Source: a virus
Virus record (IMG/VR): IMGVR_UViG_3300042691_009766
Coordinates: 6,391-70,390 of that record
Strand: one strand, 5' to 3'
DNA: 64,000 bases
Below the pieces are notes generated by a model. That model was not told the origin of the DNA, ran no database searches, and saw only the letters and a program-made list of their open reading frames with translations. Shown here in pieces: positions 41,605-48,719 of this stretch; position 1 is the stretch's first letter; every line of letters starts with the position of its first letter. Position numbers and translations under genes: made by a program.

Positions 41605-42174
41605 TTGGCAGAAGAATTCAAACCCGTAATCGGGTCTAAACCTATTGAGGGTCCAATCATCAGACTATTAGTCTGTTTGGTCTGTGAAACTATTGAAGAG
41701 TTACCAGACTACGAAGGTCCAGTCCAGTATGACTATCTCCTAGAAATCTCCGTAGAGAAACATAAGTTTCCTTCAGGTGAAGAGCACAAGGGTCGCCTAT
41801 TCAAGGTTCCAGTTAAGTCATGGGCTAATGCCAAAGACAAGAAGGAAATCCTCGACCAGTTAAAGACTGGTGGTTCTGGAGGTCTAAATGAACTAGACCC
41901 AGACAGAAAGTTTTACGAAACCAAAATGACCTTTGCACAAGATGCAATGGATTGCTGGGAGCGACACAATCGTGTAACCCTAGATAAAGGGTGTGAAGAT
42001 TACGAATCTCCATCTAAACGCCTACTACCAGACACCGCTAAAGAGCGTGGCGAACTAGGACTACCTAAGCCAGAACATTTGGAAGGTCCAAAGGTTTACA
42101 CCTGCCATTTCTGCCCATATCACGGTCAAGTAGTTCAGCGTAGACGATTAATTGCTGGACTATATAATAAGTAG
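41605..42174 (+). CDS. Cys-motif hypothetical protein
   Basis: AAGGAG RBS, TTG start; CLVC, C..H, CHFCP. Confidence 0.7.
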   Translation: MAEEFKPVIGSKPIEGPIIRLLVCLVCETIEELPDYEGPVQYDYLLEISVEKHKFPSGEEHKGRLFKVPVKSWANAKDKKEILDQLKTGGSGGLNELDPDRKFYETKMTFAQDAMDCWERHNRVTLDKGCEDYESPSKRLLPDTAKERGELGLPKPEHLEGPKVYTCHFCPYHGQVVQRRRLIAGLYNK

Positions 42175-42182
42175 AGGATAAA

Positions 42183-42293
42183 ATGGCTAAAGCAAAAGGT
42201 GCACGCAACGATAAACGCAACAATGGTAAAGCGTCAAAGAAGCGTCCAAAAGTGTTCGATAAAGTTAAAAGAAAACTAGTTACTAAGGAGTAA
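42183..42293 (+). CDS. 36-aa basic peptide
   Basis: GAGGA RBS; MAKAKGARNDKRNNGKASKKRPK... Confidence 0.6.
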   Translation: MAKAKGARNDKRNNGKASKKRPKVFDKVKRKLVTKE

Positions 42294-42295
42294 TA

Positions 42296-42589
42296 ATGGC
42301 AGTAGAAACCTATTTCCTAATCACCGTTAACGAGGATGGCACACTAACCTCCTACACTGAAATTCCAGAGGAATTGCCAGAGTCCAAGCGTGTCGCATCT
42401 AACTGGGATGTGTATAACACCGCAAAGCAGATTGTAGAAGAGTTTGACCGTCAGATTTTGGTTGACAGAGTTCTACAGGGCGTAGCAGCGTTGTTAACGC
42501 CTGTTGAGGCACCAAAGCCTTCAGGCAAAGTAAAGGACGCCCTAAAAGAGCGTGGCATTGACCCTGAAAGTACAGCCGTAGCCGAATAA
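42296..42589 (+). CDS. hypothetical protein
   Basis: AAGGAG RBS. Confidence 0.7.
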   Translation: MAVETYFLITVNEDGTLTSYTEIPEELPESKRVASNWDVYNTAKQIVEEFDRQILVDRVLQGVAALLTPVEAPKPSGKVKDALKERGIDPESTAVAE

Positions 42590-42601
42590 ACTAGTACCAT
42601 G
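42587..42601 (+). promoter_or_regulatory. leaderless promoter -10 (TAAACT-N6-ATG)
   Basis: TANNNT 6 nt before ATG with no SD. Confidence 0.55.
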
Positions 42602-43504
42602 AGTATTTCTGGTGCTGGTAATCCTACCTCGTATTTTAGTGAACCTAATACAGAGTTAGACCCTACCTTATTTCAAGGTAGGCAACTTCGTGAGTGGGTG
42701 CGTACAGGCATTGTTAGCCTGTTGCAAGACTATTTGCACCAAAAGTATCGTCACGCTGAATTATGGGCACACCCATGGTTAGCAGGTAGTGGTGTTTCGT
42801 TTCAATGGTCAGCCGCAAGACAGCCAGGAGACTTGGATTGTTTAGTTGGCGTAAACTTTAACCAGTTCCGTCAAGCCAACCCTGAGTACAGAGCACTAAC
42901 CGATAGACAGATTTCAGCAACTCTAAACGAAGGTTTTAGAGCAGACCTCCAGCCTAAAACGGAGAACTGGAATGGTTATGAGTTAACATTTTACGTCAAC
43001 ACCACAGGCACGGACATTAAAAACATAAAGCCGTATGCGGCGTATGATTTAAAATATAACGAGTGGACTGTAACTCCTGACCCAACACAAACACCGCCAA
43101 ACAAGCCTGAGTGGGAATCGGTAGTTTCAAGTGATTTTAATTTGACGAATCAAATTCATACAAGGTTCAACGCAGCCCTACAAGACCTACAGGACACCCG
43201 TAATGGGGCATCTCAGCGTAATGCTGAAGCCAGATTGAACGCAGCCGCACAGCAAGGAGTAGCCCTTTTTGACGAGATACACGAAAACCGTAGCCAAGCA
43301 TTTTCGCCTACAGGTGAGGGGTATTTGGATTTCAATAACTATCGCTGGCAAGCAGGTAAGCGTATGGGGACGATAGATAAACTGCGTGCCATACGGAAGT
43401 ATTACGGAGATATGAATAAGACCAGACAGGCGGCAACCTACGGAGTAGAGTTACCTGATGTGGACACACTTATTCGCAGAGCAACCCTATACAGGAACCA
43501 GTAA
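42599..43504 (+). CDS. Pol-beta-superfamily nucleotidyltransferase
   Basis: LAGS-x12-GDLDCLV (hG[GS]...DhD) plus later ELTFY strand. Confidence 0.75.
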   Translation: MSISGAGNPTSYFSEPNTELDPTLFQGRQLREWVRTGIVSLLQDYLHQKYRHAELWAHPWLAGSGVSFQWSAARQPGDLDCLVGVNFNQFRQANPEYRALTDRQISATLNEGFRADLQPKTENWNGYELTFYVNTTGTDIKNIKPYAAYDLKYNEWTVTPDPTQTPPNKPEWESVVSSDFNLTNQIHTRFNAALQDLQDTRNGASQRNAEARLNAAAQQGVALFDEIHENRSQAFSPTGEGYLDFNNYRWQAGKRMGTIDKLRAIRKYYGDMNKTRQAATYGVELPDVDTLIRRATLYRNQ

Positions 43505-43602
43505 TGTCGTTAACAGATACCTGTCGCATGTGTGGTCATGACCTCTACCAAGAAATGTGTGTAGTAGATGATTGTAAGTGTGATTGTCTAGCGGAGGATT
43601 AA
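43504..43602 (+). CDS. 32-aa Cys-rich peptide
   Basis: MSLTDTCRMCGHDLYQEMCVVDDCKCDCLAED; TAATG coupling. Confidence 0.55.
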   Translation: MSLTDTCRMCGHDLYQEMCVVDDCKCDCLAED

Positions 43603-43607
43603 AGTAG

Positions 43608-44093
43608 ATGCAAATACTCGTAGAACTAGAAGGCGTACTAAGAGGACAAAAAGATGAGCCAATTGCCACGGGCATCATTCTCACAGCCCAATTAGCAGCC
43701 CATAATCAAATCATTTTTATGACGGAGTTATCCCAAGCCGAAGCAGAGCAGTGGATTAACGTCAATAAAGTCGTTGATTACGACATGTTAGTAGACGCCA
43801 ACCTATCTCTGGTAGATGAGCCATTAAAGCATCGTCAGTTAAAGTACGCTCGTGCTAGAGGCAGTGTTGATTTAGTAATCACCAATGACCCATCATTTTG
43901 GGCGTATGCGTTTGACCAAGGCATTACCTGCATGATGTTTGGTGTCCCATCCTATACCCGCCCAGAGTTTCGCCCAGATGCCCCTAAAAAAGTCAGGGCA
44001 TGGAGTGAGATTGAGTTAGCCGTTGCTAAACAAAACGAGTTGCGTACAACAGATAAGCGTTTAACACGCACTGAAGGCACAAGGTTTGAATGA
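43608..44093 (+). CDS. HAD-like fold protein (degenerate motif I)
   Basis: ILVELEGVL resembles hhhDhDGVL; GGAGG RBS. Confidence 0.55.
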   Translation: MQILVELEGVLRGQKDEPIATGIILTAQLAAHNQIIFMTELSQAEAEQWINVNKVVDYDMLVDANLSLVDEPLKHRQLKYARARGSVDLVITNDPSFWAYAFDQGITCMMFGVPSYTRPEFRPDAPKKVRAWSEIELAVAKQNELRTTDKRLTRTEGTRFE

Positions 44094-45580
44094 TAATTTT
44101 TGGCGGAGTTGAGATACCTTCCAACAGAACACTATTGGAACGGTCAGGCGTAACAAATGTAATGTTGAATTACTGGGGGTTACGTAAGCGTGGATTGCCC
44201 AAGACTAAACCCTATTTGATAGGCGAGCATTTCCTTCCTGAGACTAAAGTATGGGTGGATTCAGGTGCAACTCAGGCAGACAAATCAAACCTGTCTAAAG
44301 TCGAATTAGAGGAATATGCCGCTGATTATGAGGAGTTTATTTCCCTAAATTATGACCGCATTGAAGGCTGGACAGAGTTTGATAGTCAGGTCATGGGGTT
44401 TGACTGGATTTTGAAACAGCGGGATGCGTTTGAAAATGACCCGAAATTATGGGTAGTTTGGCACAGCAAGTATAAGACCAACCTGTTGCAGTATTGGTCT
44501 GCCCAGTATCAAAACATAGCCATACCCCACGAATCTATAGAGGCAACCGTTAATTTAGCCACTATTACCAGAAATTTACGGAGGTCTAATGGAGTTCAAT
44601 TCCATGCGTTAGCAACAGCAAAACCAGACAATCTCCGACAAATCCCTTTTGCTACCGCAAGCACGCTGGCATGGTTAAGCCCAATGAGAAGAGGCGAGAC
44701 AATCATTTGGGATGGCAGTAAACTGGTTAGGTATCCTAAAAAGATGAAAGACCAAGCACGGCTACGATACAAGGCAACTGTTGAACGTGCAGGATTAAAT
44801 TTTCAGAAGTTCGTTTCAGACGACACCTTGGAAGCAACTAGGGTTGCAATATGGTCGTATTTACAGTTAGAGGCAAATGTGGACAAAGATAAGCCAGACC
44901 TAAGAGTTATTCAAGGCGGTCAAAAAGACCCGTTAATAGCAGATAACAATGACGACACCCTATATACGGGTTTGATGGAATTAGGGGGGGTAGGTTCTGA
45001 TAACAGTGCATTAGAAATGCGGAAAGAAGTTGTGCAGAGAGACCCTCAAGAAATGACCGCAATGCCCGTTTTTGGGTATGAAATGAAGACCATAGTGGAG
45101 AACCAAGATGGTCGAGATGTGTTAAAACAAGTTTCAGTTGTACAGACCAATACAAGTAGTTTGAGACAATGCGACACCTGTTTTGTTGCATCAAATTGTC
45201 CTGCATTTAAGCCTCAAAATACATGTGCGTTTAACCTTCCAGTAGAGGTAAAAACTCCAGAACAATTGAAGGCGTTGAACACCGCAATGTTAGAGATGCA
45301 AGCCCAACGAGTAGCATTTATGCGGTTTGCAGAGGAAGCCAATGGTGGTTATGCTGACCCTAACCTGTCTCAAGAGATGGACAGATACTTCAAGATGTTG
45401 GAGAAGTTAAAGGCGTTAGACGAGAACAAAGAGTTTATTCAAATTACCGCTCAACGAGCAGCGTCACAGGGTGTATTAAGTGCTATCTTTGGTGACCGAG
45501 TGGCAGCCGCAAAGGAGATTCAACCTGTAATCTCCGAAGAGCAAACCACTATGATTATCAAGAACCAGATAGAAGACTAA
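44090..45580 (+). CDS. TGT/DpdA-like barrel protein with C-terminal Cys cluster
   Basis: VWVDSGA, FHALAT, ASTLAW..PMR.G; CDTC..NCP...C. Confidence 0.5.
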   Translation: MIIFGGVEIPSNRTLLERSGVTNVMLNYWGLRKRGLPKTKPYLIGEHFLPETKVWVDSGATQADKSNLSKVELEEYAADYEEFISLNYDRIEGWTEFDSQVMGFDWILKQRDAFENDPKLWVVWHSKYKTNLLQYWSAQYQNIAIPHESIEATVNLATITRNLRRSNGVQFHALATAKPDNLRQIPFATASTLAWLSPMRRGETIIWDGSKLVRYPKKMKDQARLRYKATVERAGLNFQKFVSDDTLEATRVAIWSYLQLEANVDKDKPDLRVIQGGQKDPLIADNNDDTLYTGLMELGGVGSDNSALEMRKEVVQRDPQEMTAMPVFGYEMKTIVENQDGRDVLKQVSVVQTNTSSLRQCDTCFVASNCPAFKPQNTCAFNLPVEVKTPEQLKALNTAMLEMQAQRVAFMRFAEEANGGYADPNLSQEMDRYFKMLEKLKALDENKEFIQITAQRAASQGVLSAIFGDRVAAAKEIQPVISEEQTTMIIKNQIED

Positions 45581-45734
45581 TAGCAGATAACATCTGGTAA
45601 GAATAGTTGGAACGCTATTCCCCCTAAAATTTATCAAAATTTGCAAAGTTAGTAGAAGGTCATTAGACTATTCTGCGAGACAATAGAACTCCCTCAATCG
45701 AGGGGTATTTACTAAAAACAGAAAATGGTGGCTT

Positions 45735-47774
45735 ATGGTTAACTTCTCCTTCAAACTTGCGGAAGACTTTATCGCAGGATACAAGAACAAGAAAGCCCCA
45801 TTCGGTTACGCAGATGTTGCAGGAAACTCCGTTGGTGAGATTACATTCCTCCGCACATACTCTCGCCTCAAAGAAGACGGCACTAAGGAAACTTGGGCTG
45901 AAGTATGTGAGCGTGTAATCAATGGGATGTATTCTTTACAAAAAGATTGGGCTAAGGTTTCACGCTTACCTTGGTCAGATGCAAAAGCAGCGGCTTCGGC
46001 TAAAGAAGCGTATGACCGCTTATTCAACCTAAAGTGGACCCCGCCTGGGCGTGGGCTTTGGGTAATGGGAACTGAGATTGTAAATGTCCAAAAGAACTCA
46101 GCGGCTTTACAGAACTGTGCCTTTGTTTCTACTTTAGAAATGACTAAAAACAATCCCGCTAAACCTTTCGGCTTTCTTATGGAGGCTTCCATGCTAGGCG
46201 TAGGAGTTGGCTTTGACGACAAGGGTGCTGATAAAGGCTTTGAAATCTATGAGCCGCAAGGAACTCAAGCCTATGTTATTCCAGATACTCGTGAAGGCTG
46301 GCAGGAAAGCACCTCTGCTTTGATTAACTCTTACTTGAAGCCAGAACAATCTGCTTTGGTTTTTGACTATTCTGCTATTCGTCCTTATGGAGCCCCTATC
46401 GCTACTTTTGGCGGTACTGCTTCTGGACCAGAACCTCTTGTAAGGCTTCATAAACAACTCTTCAAGATGTTCTCTGGTCGTAAAGGCGAGACGCTCACTC
46501 GTAAAGACATTGCAGACATTGGAAACCTGATTGGCGTGTGTGTTGTCTCTGGGAATGTGAGACGCTCTGCCGAACTTCTTATTGGTCGAATTGACGATGA
46601 AGACTTCTTGAACTTGAAGAACGCTGAACGCTTCCCTGAAAGAAACTCTTATGACCCTGAAGCCCCAGGATGGGCTTGGATGTCTAACAACTCTGTTGAA
46701 GTTGCTGTTGGAACTGACTTCTCTCCTATCGTAGATGGAATTGTCCGTAACGGAGAGCCTGGGGTTATCTGGATGGACACCTCTAGGGCTTATGGACGGC
46801 TTGTAGATGCTCCAAACAACAAAGACCACCGCATTATGGGCTACAACCCTTGTGCCGAACAATCTTTGGAGTCTTTTGAAATGTGTACGCTTGTAGAAAC
46901 CTACTTGAATAGGCACGACTCTTTGGAAGACTTCAAGAGGACTTTGAAGTTTGCTTATCTTTACGCCAAAACAGTTACTCTTCTTCCTACTCACTGGGAA
47001 GAAACTAACTCCATCATGCAAAGAAACCGCAGAATAGGTACTTCTATTTCTGGCGTTGCCAACTTTGCGGATAACAAGGGGCATCATGTGCTTCGTCAAT
47101 GGATGGATGAAGGCTACAAAGTTGTTCAAGGCTACGACAAGACCTACTCTGAGTGGCTTGGTATTCGTGAAAGCATCAAGACCACTACTGTAAAGCCTTC
47201 TGGAACTGTATCTATCTTGGCTGGTGAAAGCCCAGGAGTTCACTGGACTTCTGGCGGAAAGTTCTTCTTGCGAGCCATCCGCTTTGGAAACAATGACCCT
47301 ATGCTTCCTCTTTTCAAAATGGCTAACTATCGCATTGAACCTGCTTCTGAAAGCCCAGACACTACTTCGGTTGTCTTCTTTCCTATCAAGACTGACGCAA
47401 AGCGTTCTGAAAAAGATGTCTCCATCTTTGAAAAAATGGCTTTGGCTTCTACTGCTCAACGCTACTGGAGTGATAACTCGGTCTCCTGTACAATCACCTT
47501 CAACACAAACACTGAGGCTAAAGATGTCGGAACTGTCCTTCACCTCTACGATGGGCAGTTGAAGACGGCTTCGTTCTTGCCGATGGGGAATGATACTTAC
47601 CCTCAAATGCCGTACACGCAAATCAGCGAAGAGGACTACGAGGCTTATGGTCATAAACTATTTCCGATTGACTTTACGGGAGTGTATGCGGGGATGGCTT
47701 CTGATGCCATTGGGGAAGCGTATTGCACGACTGATGCTTGTGAAATCAAACTAATCACAGACAATAGCAAGTAA
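45735..47774 (+). CDS. nrdJ: class II (adenosylcobalamin-dependent) ribonucleotide reductase
   Basis: TFLRTYSR, PPGRGLW, NCAF, GNVRRSA, NPCAEQ, TTVKPSGTVS, C-terminal CTTDAC. Confidence 0.93.
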   Translation: MVNFSFKLAEDFIAGYKNKKAPFGYADVAGNSVGEITFLRTYSRLKEDGTKETWAEVCERVINGMYSLQKDWAKVSRLPWSDAKAAASAKEAYDRLFNLKWTPPGRGLWVMGTEIVNVQKNSAALQNCAFVSTLEMTKNNPAKPFGFLMEASMLGVGVGFDDKGADKGFEIYEPQGTQAYVIPDTREGWQESTSALINSYLKPEQSALVFDYSAIRPYGAPIATFGGTASGPEPLVRLHKQLFKMFSGRKGETLTRKDIADIGNLIGVCVVSGNVRRSAELLIGRIDDEDFLNLKNAERFPERNSYDPEAPGWAWMSNNSVEVAVGTDFSPIVDGIVRNGEPGVIWMDTSRAYGRLVDAPNNKDHRIMGYNPCAEQSLESFEMCTLVETYLNRHDSLEDFKRTLKFAYLYAKTVTLLPTHWEETNSIMQRNRRIGTSISGVANFADNKGHHVLRQWMDEGYKVVQGYDKTYSEWLGIRESIKTTTVKPSGTVSILAGESPGVHWTSGGKFFLRAIRFGNNDPMLPLFKMANYRIEPASESPDTTSVVFFPIKTDAKRSEKDVSIFEKMALASTAQRYWSDNSVSCTITFNTNTEAKDVGTVLHLYDGQLKTASFLPMGNDTYPQMPYTQISEEDYEAYGHKLFPIDFTGVYAGMASDAIGEAYCTTDACEIKLITDNSK

Positions 47775-47782
47775 AGACAGGT

Positions 47783-47820
47783 AAAAGAAAACCCCCAGTT
47801 TCGGCTGGGGGTTCTCCTTT
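47783..47820. terminator. bidirectional intrinsic terminator
   Basis: AACCCCCAG-tttcgg-CTGGGGGTT between convergent nrdJ and whiB. Confidence 0.8.
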
Positions 47821-47821
47821 A

Positions 47822-48154
47822 CTAATCCTTTAGGATGGTGTTCTCATCTGTAAGTTGTACGAGAGTTTTTTGACCGCCACTCTCAACAAGAGCCTTGAGA
47901 AACTCTGCTTTTCTGCTTGGGTGCTTACGGAGGTAGATGCGTTCTTTCATCGTAGTTCCGCCCCAGATACCCCACTCATCATTTCTGATGGCATAGTTCA
48001 GGCAGGTCTCTAACAAAGGACATCTGGAACAGATGGTTTTGGCTTGTCTTGTAATCTTCATCCAGTCTTTACCCTCAGGCATAAAGATGTCTGGGTCTTC
48101 ACCGAAACAGATTGCTTTCTCGGTATCAAATAATGGCTCTTTTTCTTTTGCCAT
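47822..48154 (-). CDS. whiB: WhiB-family transcription factor (second copy)
   Basis: C.GEDPDIF, AKTICSRCPL..TCL, WGIWGGTT..ER. Confidence 0.92.
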   Translation of the reverse strand: MAKEKEPLFDTEKAICFGEDPDIFMPEGKDWMKITRQAKTICSRCPLLETCLNYAIRNDEWGIWGGTTMKERIYLRKHPSRKAEFLKALVESGGQKTLVQLTDENTILKD

Positions 48155-48286
48155 GGCTATCTTCCTCTCTTGTATTCTTTGATTGCTTGCCTGATACGAG
48201 GCTTGATAAACCCGTACCAACGATTTTGCATGACCATCTTGTATTCACCTAATGGATAGCGGAGTAAATGCCACTCCGCCCTATGC

Positions 48287-48535
48287 CTAGCGGTCTTCCT
48301 GCTCATAGTTCTCTTTCATGTAGTCATAGATTTCGCCCATAAACTCAATGGTGCTTAGTTCAAATGCTTTAGCGATTGCTTCTAGCGTATCGGTGCTGGG
48401 CTTCTTCTTCCCCATCTCCACCCCTGAGAGATGACCTAAAGATACATACGACCTTTCGGAGACATCTCGGAGGTTTAGTTGCTTCTCTGTTCTAATGGCT
48501 CTAATAGCCTCACCGATTGCTTCATTTAGTTTCAT
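48287..48535 (-). CDS. XRE-family HTH protein
   Basis: IRAIR....LNLRDVS....VSLGHLSGVEMGKK.PS...LEAIA.A. Confidence 0.9.
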   Translation of the reverse strand: MKLNEAIGEAIRAIRTEKQLNLRDVSERSYVSLGHLSGVEMGKKKPSTDTLEAIAKAFELSTIEFMGEIYDYMKENYEQEDR

Positions 48536-48719
48536 TCAGTCCTCCCTTGATGCGACCAATACCTGCCGATAAAACATCCGTTGGATGCCCCATTGCTTTA
48601 GCGAAGTCTCGCAGTTCTTCTAGTAGTTTGACTATGCGTTCTTGCTCGTCTTGCTTGCCAAGGTTATACGACATCAAGTCGCTTACGCCCATAGCATTTA
48701 GTTCTTTCATCTTTCCCAT
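48522..48719 (-). CDS. hypothetical protein
   Basis: GGAGAACTAAATG junction. Confidence 0.65.
   Translation of the reverse strand: MGKMKELNAMGVSDLMSYNLGKQDEQERIVKLLEELRDFAKAMGHPTDVLSAGIGRIKGGLNETK

What the first reader, a model, noticed from the sequence alone, without database searches (positions are those of the whole stretch)
46194..47657. Ambigrammatic nrdJ: 486-codon in-register antisense ORF from total avoidance of CTA/TTA/TCA
Seen: the minus ORF 46194-47654 is codon-aligned with nrdJ, so nrdJ has no TTA, CTA or TCA codon for about 487 codons (roughly 32 Leu and 35 Ser by hand count). The first 154 codons of the same gene contain 10 such codons, the last 39 contain 2, and the rest of the genome uses them heavily. 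At the upstream rate about 30 would be expected. Other A-ending codons (GGA, GTA, CCA, CAA) remain in use. An ATG lies two codons after the bounding stop, and the ORF points the same way as the minus-strand early arm that converges on nrdJ. Established: the same codon-avoidance signature marks the reverse ORFs of ambigrammatic narnaviruses. Inference: selection for an open antisense frame (translated product or ribosome coverage of antisense RNA); the alternative is a recombined patch from a donor with different codon usage.
Basis: partly seen in the sequence, partly recalled or inferred. Interest (0 to 1): 0.75.

Follow-up and report, generated by a model that had tools for sequence, protein, structure and literature searches.

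The report
Stop-free antisense frame across phage nrdJ
A lake phage's ribonucleotide reductase gene, like those of its closest relatives, avoids exactly the three codons that would read as stops on the opposite strand, so a long backwards reading frame with no conserved protein sequence stays open, although nothing yet shows that this frame is expressed.

Summary
nrdJ (45735-47774, +) has no TTA, CTA or TCA in codons 155-641. This leaves a codon-aligned 486-aa minus-strand ORF (46194-47654). The rest of the 70-kb phage genome uses these codons at 5.0% of codons, and the next longest such run is 123 codons.

It is not a recent recombined patch. A monophyletic clade of five diverged homologues (Q, L082, L003, L083, L002; pS 0.44-0.69, except the near-identical pair L002/L083) keeps 394-601 codons open. 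Their flanking genes, and most of the 217 nrdJ relatives, use the three codons freely.

- **Codon-specific:** the three are the most depleted of 59 codons.
- **Frame-specific:** the same trinucleotides in the other two codon phases are not depleted.
- **Region-limited:** the first ~80-150 codons are exempt.
- **Ongoing:** at least 59 synonymous Leu/Ser changes produced at most 2 such codons.

The antisense product shows no amino-acid constraint.

Best reading (about 0.5): selection keeps the antisense frame open, which implies ribosomes read an antisense RNA, as in ambigrammatic narnaviruses. Against it, a strong conserved terminator lies between the minus arm and nrdJ, and I found no promoter, no conserved start and no RNA data. 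The main rival is a gene-specific codon preference on the sense strand.

[quoted passage not shown] This scan has noted stop-free 'bridge' ORFs in other phages; the architecture here is different.

The parts
45735..47774 (+). nrdJ, a class II (B12-dependent) ribonucleotide reductase, 679 aa. It is the real, conserved gene at this locus.
   Evidence: ORF. (Pfam PF17975 3e-30, PF21995 1e-15, PF02867 8e-6). (69% nt identity to the 'ribonucleoside-triphosphate reductase' of Actinomycetia phage DSL-LC01). (thousands of homologues).
46194..47657 (-). In-register antisense open frame. It is 487 codons from stop to stop (46197-47657) plus its stop (46194-46196), and it covers nrdJ codons 155-641.
   Evidence: Its product has no Pfam family.
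47652..47654 (-). First in-frame ATG of the antisense frame (rc of nrdJ His640 CAT). It is preceded only by a weak GGAAA. The start is not conserved: L082 has TTG at codon 641, and L003/L083/L002 have TTG at the nrdJ end.
47658..47660 (-). Upstream bounding antisense stop, TAG (rc of nrdJ codon 642 CTA). It is shared with L082 and absent in L003/L083/L002, where the frame stays open to the nrdJ stop codon.
45936..46196 (+). nrdJ codons 68-154, carrying 10 TTA/CTA/TCA codons. This is the part of the gene exempt from the avoidance. Codon 154 (CTA, 46194-46196) gives the antisense stop.
   Evidence: TCA at codon 81 occurs in 71 of 126 family members, so these are ordinary family states.
47781..47822 (.). 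Bidirectional intrinsic-terminator hairpin (18-bp stem followed by a U-run) between the whiB stop and the nrdJ stop. It is predicted to stop minus-arm transcripts before they enter nrdJ.
   Evidence: (dG -34.2 kcal/mol, z -7.2, 0 of 200 shuffles as stable). Equivalent hairpins occur in L003, L083 and L082.
47822..48220 (-). WhiB-family regulator gene, the last gene of the converging minus-strand arm.
   Evidence: (PF02467, 2.5e-17).

Best explanation
Natural selection keeps the codon-aligned antisense frame of nrdJ free of stop codons. In the clade's ancestor the open frame covered roughly codons 80-97 to 679. In this genome it covers 155-641, and nine relatives share a core of about 248-525.

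Only a ribosome can 'see' a reading frame. The inference is therefore that an antisense RNA across nrdJ is translated, at least occasionally.

The encoded amino-acid sequence is not conserved. What matters would be the passage of ribosomes, for example shielding the antisense RNA from Rho-dependent termination or from nucleases, and so controlling how far antisense transcription reaches into nrdJ. A folded protein is not needed. This works like the reverse ORF of ambigrammatic narnaviruses.

Shown: the codon avoidance, its specificity, its persistence and its regional limits. Inferred: that the cause is antisense translation. Speculative: its purpose, such as timing or damping of nrdJ expression.
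For: 1. Clade conservation despite saturated synonymous sites. Q, L082, L003, L083 and L002 form one clade. Their open runs are 487, 394, 591, 601 and 583 codons. Pairwise pS is 0.44-0.69 and NG86 dS is 1.0-1.9.

2. Ongoing avoidance. At the 56 patch columns where all four lineages have Leu or Ser there are at least 59 synonymous codon changes, yet only 2 stop-complement codons exist in the four patches. P = 7e-5 at the flank usage of 0.22 and 1e-8 at 0.34.

3. Gene-specific. Flanking genes of the same loci use the three codons at 22-39% of Leu+Ser. Co-oriented replication genes of this genome use them at 0.33-0.37. Among 163 flanking ORFs of at least 250 codons the longest such run is 209 and the median is 57. 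Among 217 unique nrdJ the median is 75 and only 8 reach 300.

4. Codon-specific. Comparing the clean clade with 18 'dirty' relatives, the three most depleted of 59 codons are exactly TCA (0.03x), TTA (0.04x) and CTA (0.045x). The next well-populated codon is GCA at 0.26x. CCA, the fourth YYA codon, whose complement is not a stop, is at 0.55x.

5. A versus G among R-ending TCN+CTN codons. The A:G ratios are 0:4, 2:5, 0:11 and 0:19, against 36:17, 39:14, 33:13 and 21:20 in the other four-fold families.

6. Frame-specific. The same trinucleotides in codon phases 2 and 3 occur 27-32 times per patch, no fewer than in relatives. This excludes DNA or RNA word avoidance.

7. ORF-shaped. Stop-complement codons cluster at the ends. 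Shuffle results: Q 0/20,000, L082 0/20,000, L086 0/20,000, L003 4e-4, L087 0.002, L085 0.005, L002 0.045. The upstream end of the frame is nearly fixed (codon 679 or 641, always with a start codon within 2 codons), while the downstream end varies from 79 to 248.

8. No recombination breakpoints at the patch borders.
Against: 1. Terminator. A strong bidirectional terminator lies between the minus arm and nrdJ in Q, with equivalents in L003, L083 and L082. In L003/L083/L002 a real thioredoxin gene, whose antisense has stops, also intervenes.

2. No visible expression signals. There is no sigma-70-like promoter in 45400-48700 (0 found, 4.3 expected), no good Shine-Dalgarno sequence and no conserved start codon.

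3. Openness is leaky. The closest relative, L082, has two stops at codons 242 and 247, and the sister clade has 5-7 stops in the patch.

4. A general sense-level codon shift exists in the same region (GCA, ACA and GTA down 2-4 fold).

5. TTA is rare relative to TTG throughout the nrdJ family, even in members with many antisense stops.

6. L001 (DSL-LC01), L088 and L037 prefer TCG/CTG over TCA/CTA (4:26, 16:29, 11:21) without having an open frame. Sense-level preferences against these codons therefore do occur.

7. With the most conservative background, the sister clade's own nrdJ usage of 0.11, the Fitch test gives only P = 0.036.

8. Effectively only four independent lineages have DNA in hand.
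Confidence: 0.5

Rival explanations
1. Sense-strand codon preference. In this clade nrdJ is under gene-specific translational selection, or a leftover host-like codon usage, that disfavours the Leu/Ser codons read by tRNAs with anticodons UAA, UAG and UGA. The open antisense frame is then a by-product. This is the classic explanation for long frame -1 'shadow' ORFs.
For: The patch has a general shift to NNY in four-fold families (Y3 0.71-0.92), with GCA, ACA and GTA down 2-4 fold. TTA is rare versus TTG across the whole nrdJ family, although this genome's commonest Leu codon is TTA. L001, L088 and L037 disfavour TCA/CTA versus TCG/CTG without an open frame. No antisense expression signals were found and a terminator is in the way. 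The literature treats most long antiparallel ORFs as not coding for essential proteins (10.1101/724807, abstract and Results read).
Against: It does not explain why the first 80-150 codons of the same mRNA are exempt: codons 1-96 versus 97-679 give L003 4/13 vs 0/80, L082 8/17 vs 5/78 and Q 5/13 vs 7/82. It does not explain why genes of the same operon and expression class use the codons freely. The depletion is 20-30 fold for exactly the three stop complements but at most 4 fold for any other populated codon, CCA included. Members with very different GC3 (0.44 to 0.64) share the same zero. 'Dirty' relatives in the same genomic context use CTA+TCA for about half of CTN+TCN. The genome carries no tRNA genes that could explain a split usage.
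Confidence: 0.27
2. A conventional antisense overlapping gene: the 486-aa product is a functional protein born by overprinting.
For: The frame is long and has an ATG. The open frame is conserved in the clade. Long translated antisense overlapping genes have been reported in bacteria (PMC8850804, abstract only seen).
Against: There is no amino-acid constraint. Antisense pN/pS is 1.20-1.44 in clean-clade pairs, the same as 1.11-1.66 in 18 pairs without an open frame. Antisense identity is only 52-70% where the sense protein is 87-93% identical. Sense pS is not reduced relative to pairs of equal protein divergence, or relative to the gene's 5' part. The product has no Pfam family. The start codon and both ends vary between relatives.
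Confidence: 0.08
3. Recombined patch or chance: codons 155-641 were recently imported from a donor that lacks these codons, or the run is a sampling accident of one gene out of many scanned.
For: The codon usage of the patch differs from its flanks and from the genome. The sister clade and L086 show intermediate states that could be read as amelioration.
Against: Third-position identity to 13 relatives shows no step at codons 154 or 641. The trait is shared by a clade with saturated synonymous divergence and has survived at least 59 Leu/Ser codon turnovers. Two-fold A-ending codons (GAA 25/33, CAA 11/13) are already at or above genome usage, so amelioration is not incomplete. Chance is excluded by the independent relatives and by 0 of 20,000 shuffles.
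Confidence: 0.04

Closest known systems
Ambigrammatic narnaviruses (reverse ORF over the RdRp gene of Culex narnavirus 1 and relatives). Sources: Retallack et al. 2021, PMC8316113 (passages read); Dudas et al. 2021, PMC8155312 (abstract and outline read).
   Same: The reverse frame is codon-aligned and kept open by avoiding the forward codons TTA/CTA/TCA. Openness is conserved among diverged relatives. The reverse product is poorly conserved or unconstrained, which suggests that the act of translation matters rather than the protein.
   Different: Here the genome is a dsDNA phage, so an antisense RNA has to be made first, and none is shown. Only one gene of about 88 ORFs is affected. The frame covers 72% of the gene in Q and 87-88% in L003/L083, not the whole gene. 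It is leaky in some relatives. There is no experimental evidence of translation.
[quoted passage not shown] Source: Moshensky & Alexeevski 2019, bioRxiv 10.1101/724807 (abstract and Results part 1 read).
   Same: Frame -1, long overlap, statistically significant avoidance of opposite-strand stops through synonymous codon choice, and no negative selection on the translated product. [quoted passage not shown]
   Different: For dnaK the authors found no clade in which all members carry the long ORF. Here a monophyletic clade does. The host genome is 44% GC and uses the three codons heavily elsewhere, so background codon bias does not explain it. The gene is a phage nrdJ. Whether their 2,898 cases include phage genes I could not see (supplementary tables are closed).
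Stop-free 'bridge' ORFs over backward-inserted genes in phage operons. These are earlier unpublished notes of this scan: e1-5916191, e1-6121455, e1-3483498 and others.
   Same: A phage gene whose opposite strand is kept free of stops by codon choice, with a meaningless product.
   Different: Those genes sit backwards inside an operon, and the open frame links the operon's neighbouring genes stop-to-start. Here nrdJ points the same way as its whole 54-kb arm. The antisense frame leads to no minus-strand gene and is separated from the minus arm by a terminator.
Translated antisense overlapping genes of bacteria, for example two long OLGs of Pseudomonas aeruginosa (PMC8850804, abstract only seen).
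   Same: A long ORF embedded antisense in an annotated gene.
   Different: Those are reported as being under purifying selection and translated. Here the product shows no constraint and expression is untested.

Membership tests
Ambigrammatic (narnavirus-type) gene | The codon-aligned reverse frame is kept free of stops by avoiding forward TTA/CTA/TCA. | tested here: met
Ambigrammatic (narnavirus-type) gene | The reverse ORF spans essentially the whole forward ORF. | tested here: not met
   487 of 679 codons in Q and 583-601 of 679 in L002/L003/L083. The first ~80-150 codons always carry stops.
Ambigrammatic (narnavirus-type) gene | Openness is conserved across diverged relatives while the reverse product is not conserved. 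| tested here: met
   5 of 5 clade members keep at least 394 codons open at pS 0.44-0.69. Antisense pN/pS is 1.2-1.4, the same as the controls.
Ambigrammatic (narnavirus-type) gene | Both strands exist as RNA and the reverse ORF is translated. | not testable with these tools
   This is a dsDNA phage. No RNA run was listed. A terminator lies upstream and no promoter was found.
Long antiparallel ORF with stop-codon avoidance (Moshensky & Alexeevski 2019) | Frame -1 ORF overlapping a gene by more than 180 bp, with significant avoidance of opposite-strand stops through synonymous codon choice. | tested here: met
   1,461-bp overlap. P = 2e-13 against genome usage and 0 of 20,000 within-gene shuffles.
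Long antiparallel ORF with stop-codon avoidance (Moshensky & Alexeevski 2019) | The translation is not under negative selection. | tested here: met
Conventional antisense overlapping protein-coding gene | Purifying selection on the overlapping product, or reduced synonymous rate in the host gene. | tested here: not met
Conventional antisense overlapping protein-coding gene | Own promoter, ribosome-binding site and conserved start codon. | tested here: inconclusive
   None found with a sigma-70 consensus scan, which does not cover actinobacterial promoter types. The start codon differs between relatives.
Bridge ORF over a backward gene (earlier notes of this scan) | The covered gene lies opposite to the surrounding operon, and the open frame is joined to operon genes on both sides. 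| tested here: not met
   nrdJ is co-oriented with all large ORFs from the genome start to 47774. The antisense frame starts 168 nt beyond the whiB stop, behind a terminator, and ends inside nrdJ.
Class II ribonucleotide reductase (NrdJ), for the forward gene | RNR alpha N-terminal domain, class II insertion domain and RNR barrel domain. | tested here: met
   PF17975 (105 bits), PF21995 (58 bits) and PF02867 (25.2 bits, cut-off 23.9). Homologues are named adenosylcobalamin-dependent ribonucleoside-triphosphate reductase by their sources.

The most novel reading that the evidence does not exclude
A dsDNA phage lineage maintains a true ambigram. An antisense RNA over its ribonucleotide reductase gene must stay translatable for hundreds of codons, although the product is meaningless. 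Ribosome transit on that RNA, for example by blocking Rho and setting how far antisense transcription invades nrdJ, would then be a regulatory device for a nucleotide-metabolism gene. [quoted passage not shown]
Probability: 0.35. Interest if true: 0.8.

Novelty: new variant of a known kind. Interest (0 to 1): 0.6.

Why it matters
Long ORFs opposite real genes are usually dismissed as by-products of codon bias. Here the usual explanation is hard to sustain. The genome is 44% GC and uses the three stop-complement codons heavily. Neighbouring and co-expressed genes do too, and so do most nrdJ relatives. Even so, one clade has kept exactly these three codons out of one contiguous part of one gene through saturating synonymous turnover.

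If ribosomes are the agent, this is a natural test case in a DNA phage for 'translation without a protein'. It is accessible to simple experiments, namely nrdJ-synonymous antisense stop mutants and stranded RNA-seq/Ribo-seq. If the cause turns out to be a sense-strand effect, it would be an unusually sharp, region-limited codon constraint that also needs explaining.

It is also a practical caution for annotation. The 486-aa ORF should not be called as a protein gene on length alone.

Tried and rejected
1. Recombined patch. The sliding third-position identity of Q against 13 relatives shows no step at the patch borders. Rejected.

2. DNA or RNA word avoidance (restriction sites, RNase motifs). 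TTA/CTA/TCA in codon phases 2 and 3 are as common as in relatives. Rejected.

3. Phage tRNAs explaining a split codon usage. There are no tRNA genes in the window or in the genome.

4. Conventional protein. No Pfam hit and no amino-acid constraint.

5. 'Bridge ORF' architecture, a lead from earlier notes. The gene orientation and the terminator do not fit.

6. A second antisense frame over nrdJ codons 24-171 (146 codons in Q). It is also present in L007 and L086, and shorter in L006 and L082, but absent in L003/L083. It is most likely a by-product of the protein sequence.

7. Conserved antisense stops at codons 76, 78 and 81. TCA at codon 81 occurs in 71 of 126 family members, so these are ordinary family states rather than a conserved stop signal.

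8. Link to the CTT/CTC 'deserts' noted in related lake phages. In this window the + strand is CTY-poor at 42-45 kb (6-10 per kb) but nrdJ is CTY-rich (50-65 per kb). That follows from its NCT/CTT codon preference. No desert border coincides with the patch.

9. Extension of the clean zone into the upstream gene in L083/L002/L003. Only marginal (P 0.03 and 0.11).

10. Expression data. For window:45735-47774, kind rna, no RNA holder was listed. This is no evidence either way.

Two further IMG/VR scans with P0008 and P0012 as queries brought 138 more loci but no new member of the clean clade.

12. Literature. Searches for 'ambigrammatic'+'bacteriophage', long antisense ORF with codon-usage terms, antisense/antiparallel overlapping + bacteriophage + stop codon and 'nrdJ'+'antisense' listed no paper describing a stop-free antisense frame in a phage nrdJ or in another DNA-phage gene. 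I read listings only, apart from the three papers cited.
Full report
**What is there**

The window is 64 kb of a 70,390-bp phage genome. The phage probably infects an actinobacterium. It has a WhiB gene at 47822-48220, and the nearest GenBank record is Actinomycetia phage DSL-LC01 from lake water.

nrdJ (45735-47774, +, 679 aa) is a class II ribonucleotide reductase (Pfam PF17975, PF21995, PF02867). It is the last gene of a long plus-strand arm that also holds the helicase, DNA polymerase and UvsX-like genes. That arm converges on a minus-strand arm of small genes.

The minus ORF 46194-47654 (486 aa, ATG) is codon-aligned with nrdJ. TTA/CTA/TCA occur only at nrdJ codons 68, 76, 78, 81, 96, 99, 122, 125, 134, 154, 642 and 673.

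**Is it more than chance?**

- In 82 other long ORFs (18,525 codons) the three codons make up 5.0% of codons. The next longest run without them is 123 codons.
- With genome usage, P(0 among 32 Leu + 37 Ser) = 2e-13.
- When the gene's own Leu/Ser codons are shuffled over their positions, 0 of 20,000 shuffles reach 487 codons.
- The first figure is inflated, because the patch also has a milder general shift away from NNA in four-fold families (GCA 2/32, ACA 3/35, ATA 1/26). The decisive evidence therefore has to come from relatives.

**Relatives**

Scans of IMG/VR and of metagenome contigs gave 160 loci at first and 298 in the end. These contain 217 unique nrdJ sequences. The median in-register antisense-open run is 75 codons, and only 8 sequences reach 300.

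In a protein tree, Q groups as ((L083,L002),(L003,(L082,Q))).

| Locus | Stop-complement codons in Q's 487-codon patch | Longest open run (codons) |
|---|---|---|
| Q | 0 | 487 |
| L082 | 2 | 394 |
| L003 | 0 | 591 |
| L083 | 0 | 601 |
| L002 | 0 | 583 |

- The sister clade (L006, L087, L005, L085, L004) has 5-13 such codons in the patch. L087, L085 and L005 keep 318-431 codons open.
- The further family has 13-41.
- The clean state is therefore derived and clade-wide. It is not a property of Q alone.

**Persistence**

Synonymous sites between clade members are saturated or nearly so. NG86 dS is 1.0-1.9 in the patch and pS is 0.44-0.69, except for the near-identical pair L002/L083.

At the 56 patch columns where Q, L082, L003 and L083 all have Leu or all have Ser, parsimony needs at least 59 synonymous codon changes. 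The four patches nevertheless contain only 2 stop-complement codons, both in L082, at Q codons 242 and 247.

| Assumed background rate of the three codons | Source of the rate | P |
|---|---|---|
| 0.22 | flanking genes | 7e-5 |
| 0.34 | flanking genes | 1e-8 |
| 0.11 | sister clade's own, already depleted, nrdJ usage | 0.036 |

**Specificity**

- *To the gene.* Flanking genes of all clade loci use the three codons at 22-39% of Leu+Ser. Among 163 flanking ORFs of at least 250 codons the longest such run is 209.
- *To the codons.* Comparing the clean clade with 18 relatives, the three most depleted of 59 codons are exactly TCA 0.03x, TTA 0.04x and CTA 0.045x. The next populated codons are GCA 0.26x, ACA 0.37x, GTA 0.48x and CCA 0.55x.
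- *A versus G.* In L083 and L003 the R-ending TCN/CTN codons are plentiful but all end in G (0:19 and 0:11). Other four-fold families have A:G of 21:20 and 33:13.
- *To the frame.* The same trinucleotides in codon phases 2 and 3 occur 27-32 times per patch.
- *To a region.* Stop-complement codons cluster at the gene's 5' end, and in Q/L082 also in the last 38 codons. Within-gene shuffle results are below.

| Locus | Shuffle P |
|---|---|
| Q | 0 of 20,000 |
| L082 | 0 of 20,000 |
| L086 | 0 of 20,000 |
| L003 | 4e-4 |
| L087 | 0.002 |
| L085 | 0.005 |
| L002 | 0.045 |
| L083 | 0.25 (only one such codon, so no power) |

The open regions of nine sequences share codons 248-525.

**What it is not**

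- There is no step in third-position identity at codons 154 or 641, so it is not a recent import.
- There is no amino-acid constraint on the antisense product. Antisense pN/pS is 1.20-1.44 in clean-clade pairs, against 1.11-1.66 in 18 pairs without an open frame. Sense pS is not reduced.
- The product matches no Pfam family. It is therefore not a conventional overlapping gene.
- The genome has no tRNA genes.

**Evidence against expression**

- An 18-bp GC-rich hairpin with a U-run (47781-47822; dG -34.2 kcal/mol, z -7.2) sits between the whiB stop and the nrdJ stop.
- Equivalent hairpins follow the last minus-arm gene in L003, L083 and L082.
- In L003/L083/L002 a real thioredoxin gene (WCxPC motif, 81% identical between the two) lies between that hairpin and nrdJ. 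Its antisense has stops.
- No sigma-70-like promoter was found in 45400-48700. That scan does not cover actinobacterial promoter types.
- The start codon is not conserved: ATG at codon 640 in Q, TTG at codon 641 in L082, and TTG at the nrdJ end in the others.
- No RNA run was listed. This is reported only as something tried.

**Cautions for the selection reading**

- TTA is rare relative to TTG in the whole nrdJ family.
- DSL-LC01 (L001), L088 and L037 disfavour TCA/CTA against TCG/CTG without having an open frame.
- A 2-4 fold general loss of NNA accompanies the specific loss.
- A sense-level codon preference can therefore contribute. What it does not explain is the exemption of the first 80-150 codons, the free use of the codons in neighbouring and co-expressed genes, the complete rather than partial loss, or the same zero in members with GC3 from 0.44 to 0.64.

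**Reading**

The most economical account of a constraint that is codon-specific, frame-specific, contiguous and persistent is selection against stops in the antisense frame. That implies ribosomes read a minus-strand RNA over nrdJ.

The product is unconstrained, so the passage of ribosomes would be what matters. One possibility is protection of an antisense transcript from Rho or from nucleases, which would set how far it reaches into nrdJ. I put this reading at about 0.5. The sense-level rival is at about 0.27, a conventional protein at 0.08 and patch or chance at 0.04. The remainder is unknown.

The steps from 'selection on openness' to 'translation' and then to 'purpose' are inference.

**Comparison with what is known**

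- The signature matches ambigrammatic narnaviruses. There, stops in the reverse ORF abolish persistence, and the authors propose that translation itself matters (PMC8316113, passages read; PMC8155312, abstract read). A dsDNA phage lacks the defining RNA genome, and coverage of the gene here is partial.
- The closest published kind is the 'long antiparallel ORF with stop-codon avoidance' of prokaryotes: 2,898 significant cases in 929 genomes, mostly frame -1, with products not under negative selection and dnaK as the example (10.1101/724807, abstract and Results read). The present case adds a phage gene, a low-GC background that uses the codons heavily, and a monophyletic clade that keeps the frame. 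The authors did not find such a clade for dnaK.
- Earlier notes of this scan describe stop-free 'bridge' ORFs over backward genes in other phages. That architecture was tested here and does not apply.
- My four literature searches listed no description of this in a phage nrdJ.

**Verdict**

This is a new variant of a known kind, with interest 0.6.

Noticed in passing
window 42000-45500 (+ strand) versus 45700-47800: CTT/CTC words on the + strand fall to 6-10 per kb at 42-45 kb, over the operon upstream of nrdJ. The + arm typically has 20-30 per kb. nrdJ itself has 50-65 per kb, like the + strand over minus-arm genes. Earlier notes of this scan describe CTT/CTC 'deserts' next to or inside nrdJ in related lake phages.
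   Followed up: partly
window 47781-47822; L003 5340-5400; L083 5340-5400; L082 5040-5085: A GC-rich bidirectional terminator hairpin at the convergence point of the two arms is conserved in position across relatives, although its sequence differs.
   Followed up: yes
L083, L002 and L003 5034-5348 (+): A thioredoxin gene (WCxPC motif) follows nrdJ with an ATGA stop-start overlap in L083/L002/L003. It is absent in Q and L082, where the terminator follows nrdJ directly.
   Followed up: partly
L083/L002 1320-2840 (+); L003 1341-2840 (+): The gene upstream of nrdJ is the homologue of window 44090-45580. A first-reader note calls it TGT/DpdA-like; I did not test that, and Pfam gave no hit. Its last 209 codons (L083/L002) or 113 codons (L003) are free of TTA/CTA/TCA, the longest such runs among 163 flanking ORFs. 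Within-gene shuffle P is only 0.03 and 0.11.
   Followed up: partly
window 45735-45915 (nrdJ codons 1-60): Third-position identity to clade members is higher here (0.68-0.85) than in most of the gene (0.4-0.65). This suggests an extra synonymous constraint, or recombination, at the gene's 5' end.
   Followed up: no
window 45806-46222 (-): A second antisense frame, not codon-aligned, is open for 146 codons over nrdJ codons 24-171. The same frame is open in L086 and L007, which have many in-register stops, so it looks like a by-product of the protein sequence.
   Followed up: yes
nrdJ homologues L001 (DSL-LC01), L088 and L037: These use TCG/CTG far more than TCA/CTA (A:G of 4:26, 16:29 and 11:21), while other four-fold families prefer A. 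None has a long open antisense frame. This is a codon-family-specific preference of unknown cause.
   Followed up: partly
L086 (metagenome contig), nrdJ codons 239-578: L086 sits in a different subclade, next to members with 16-30 stop-complement codons in the patch. It still has a 340-codon clean central run (0 of 20,000 shuffles). This is either an independent origin or a recombinant centre.
   Followed up: no
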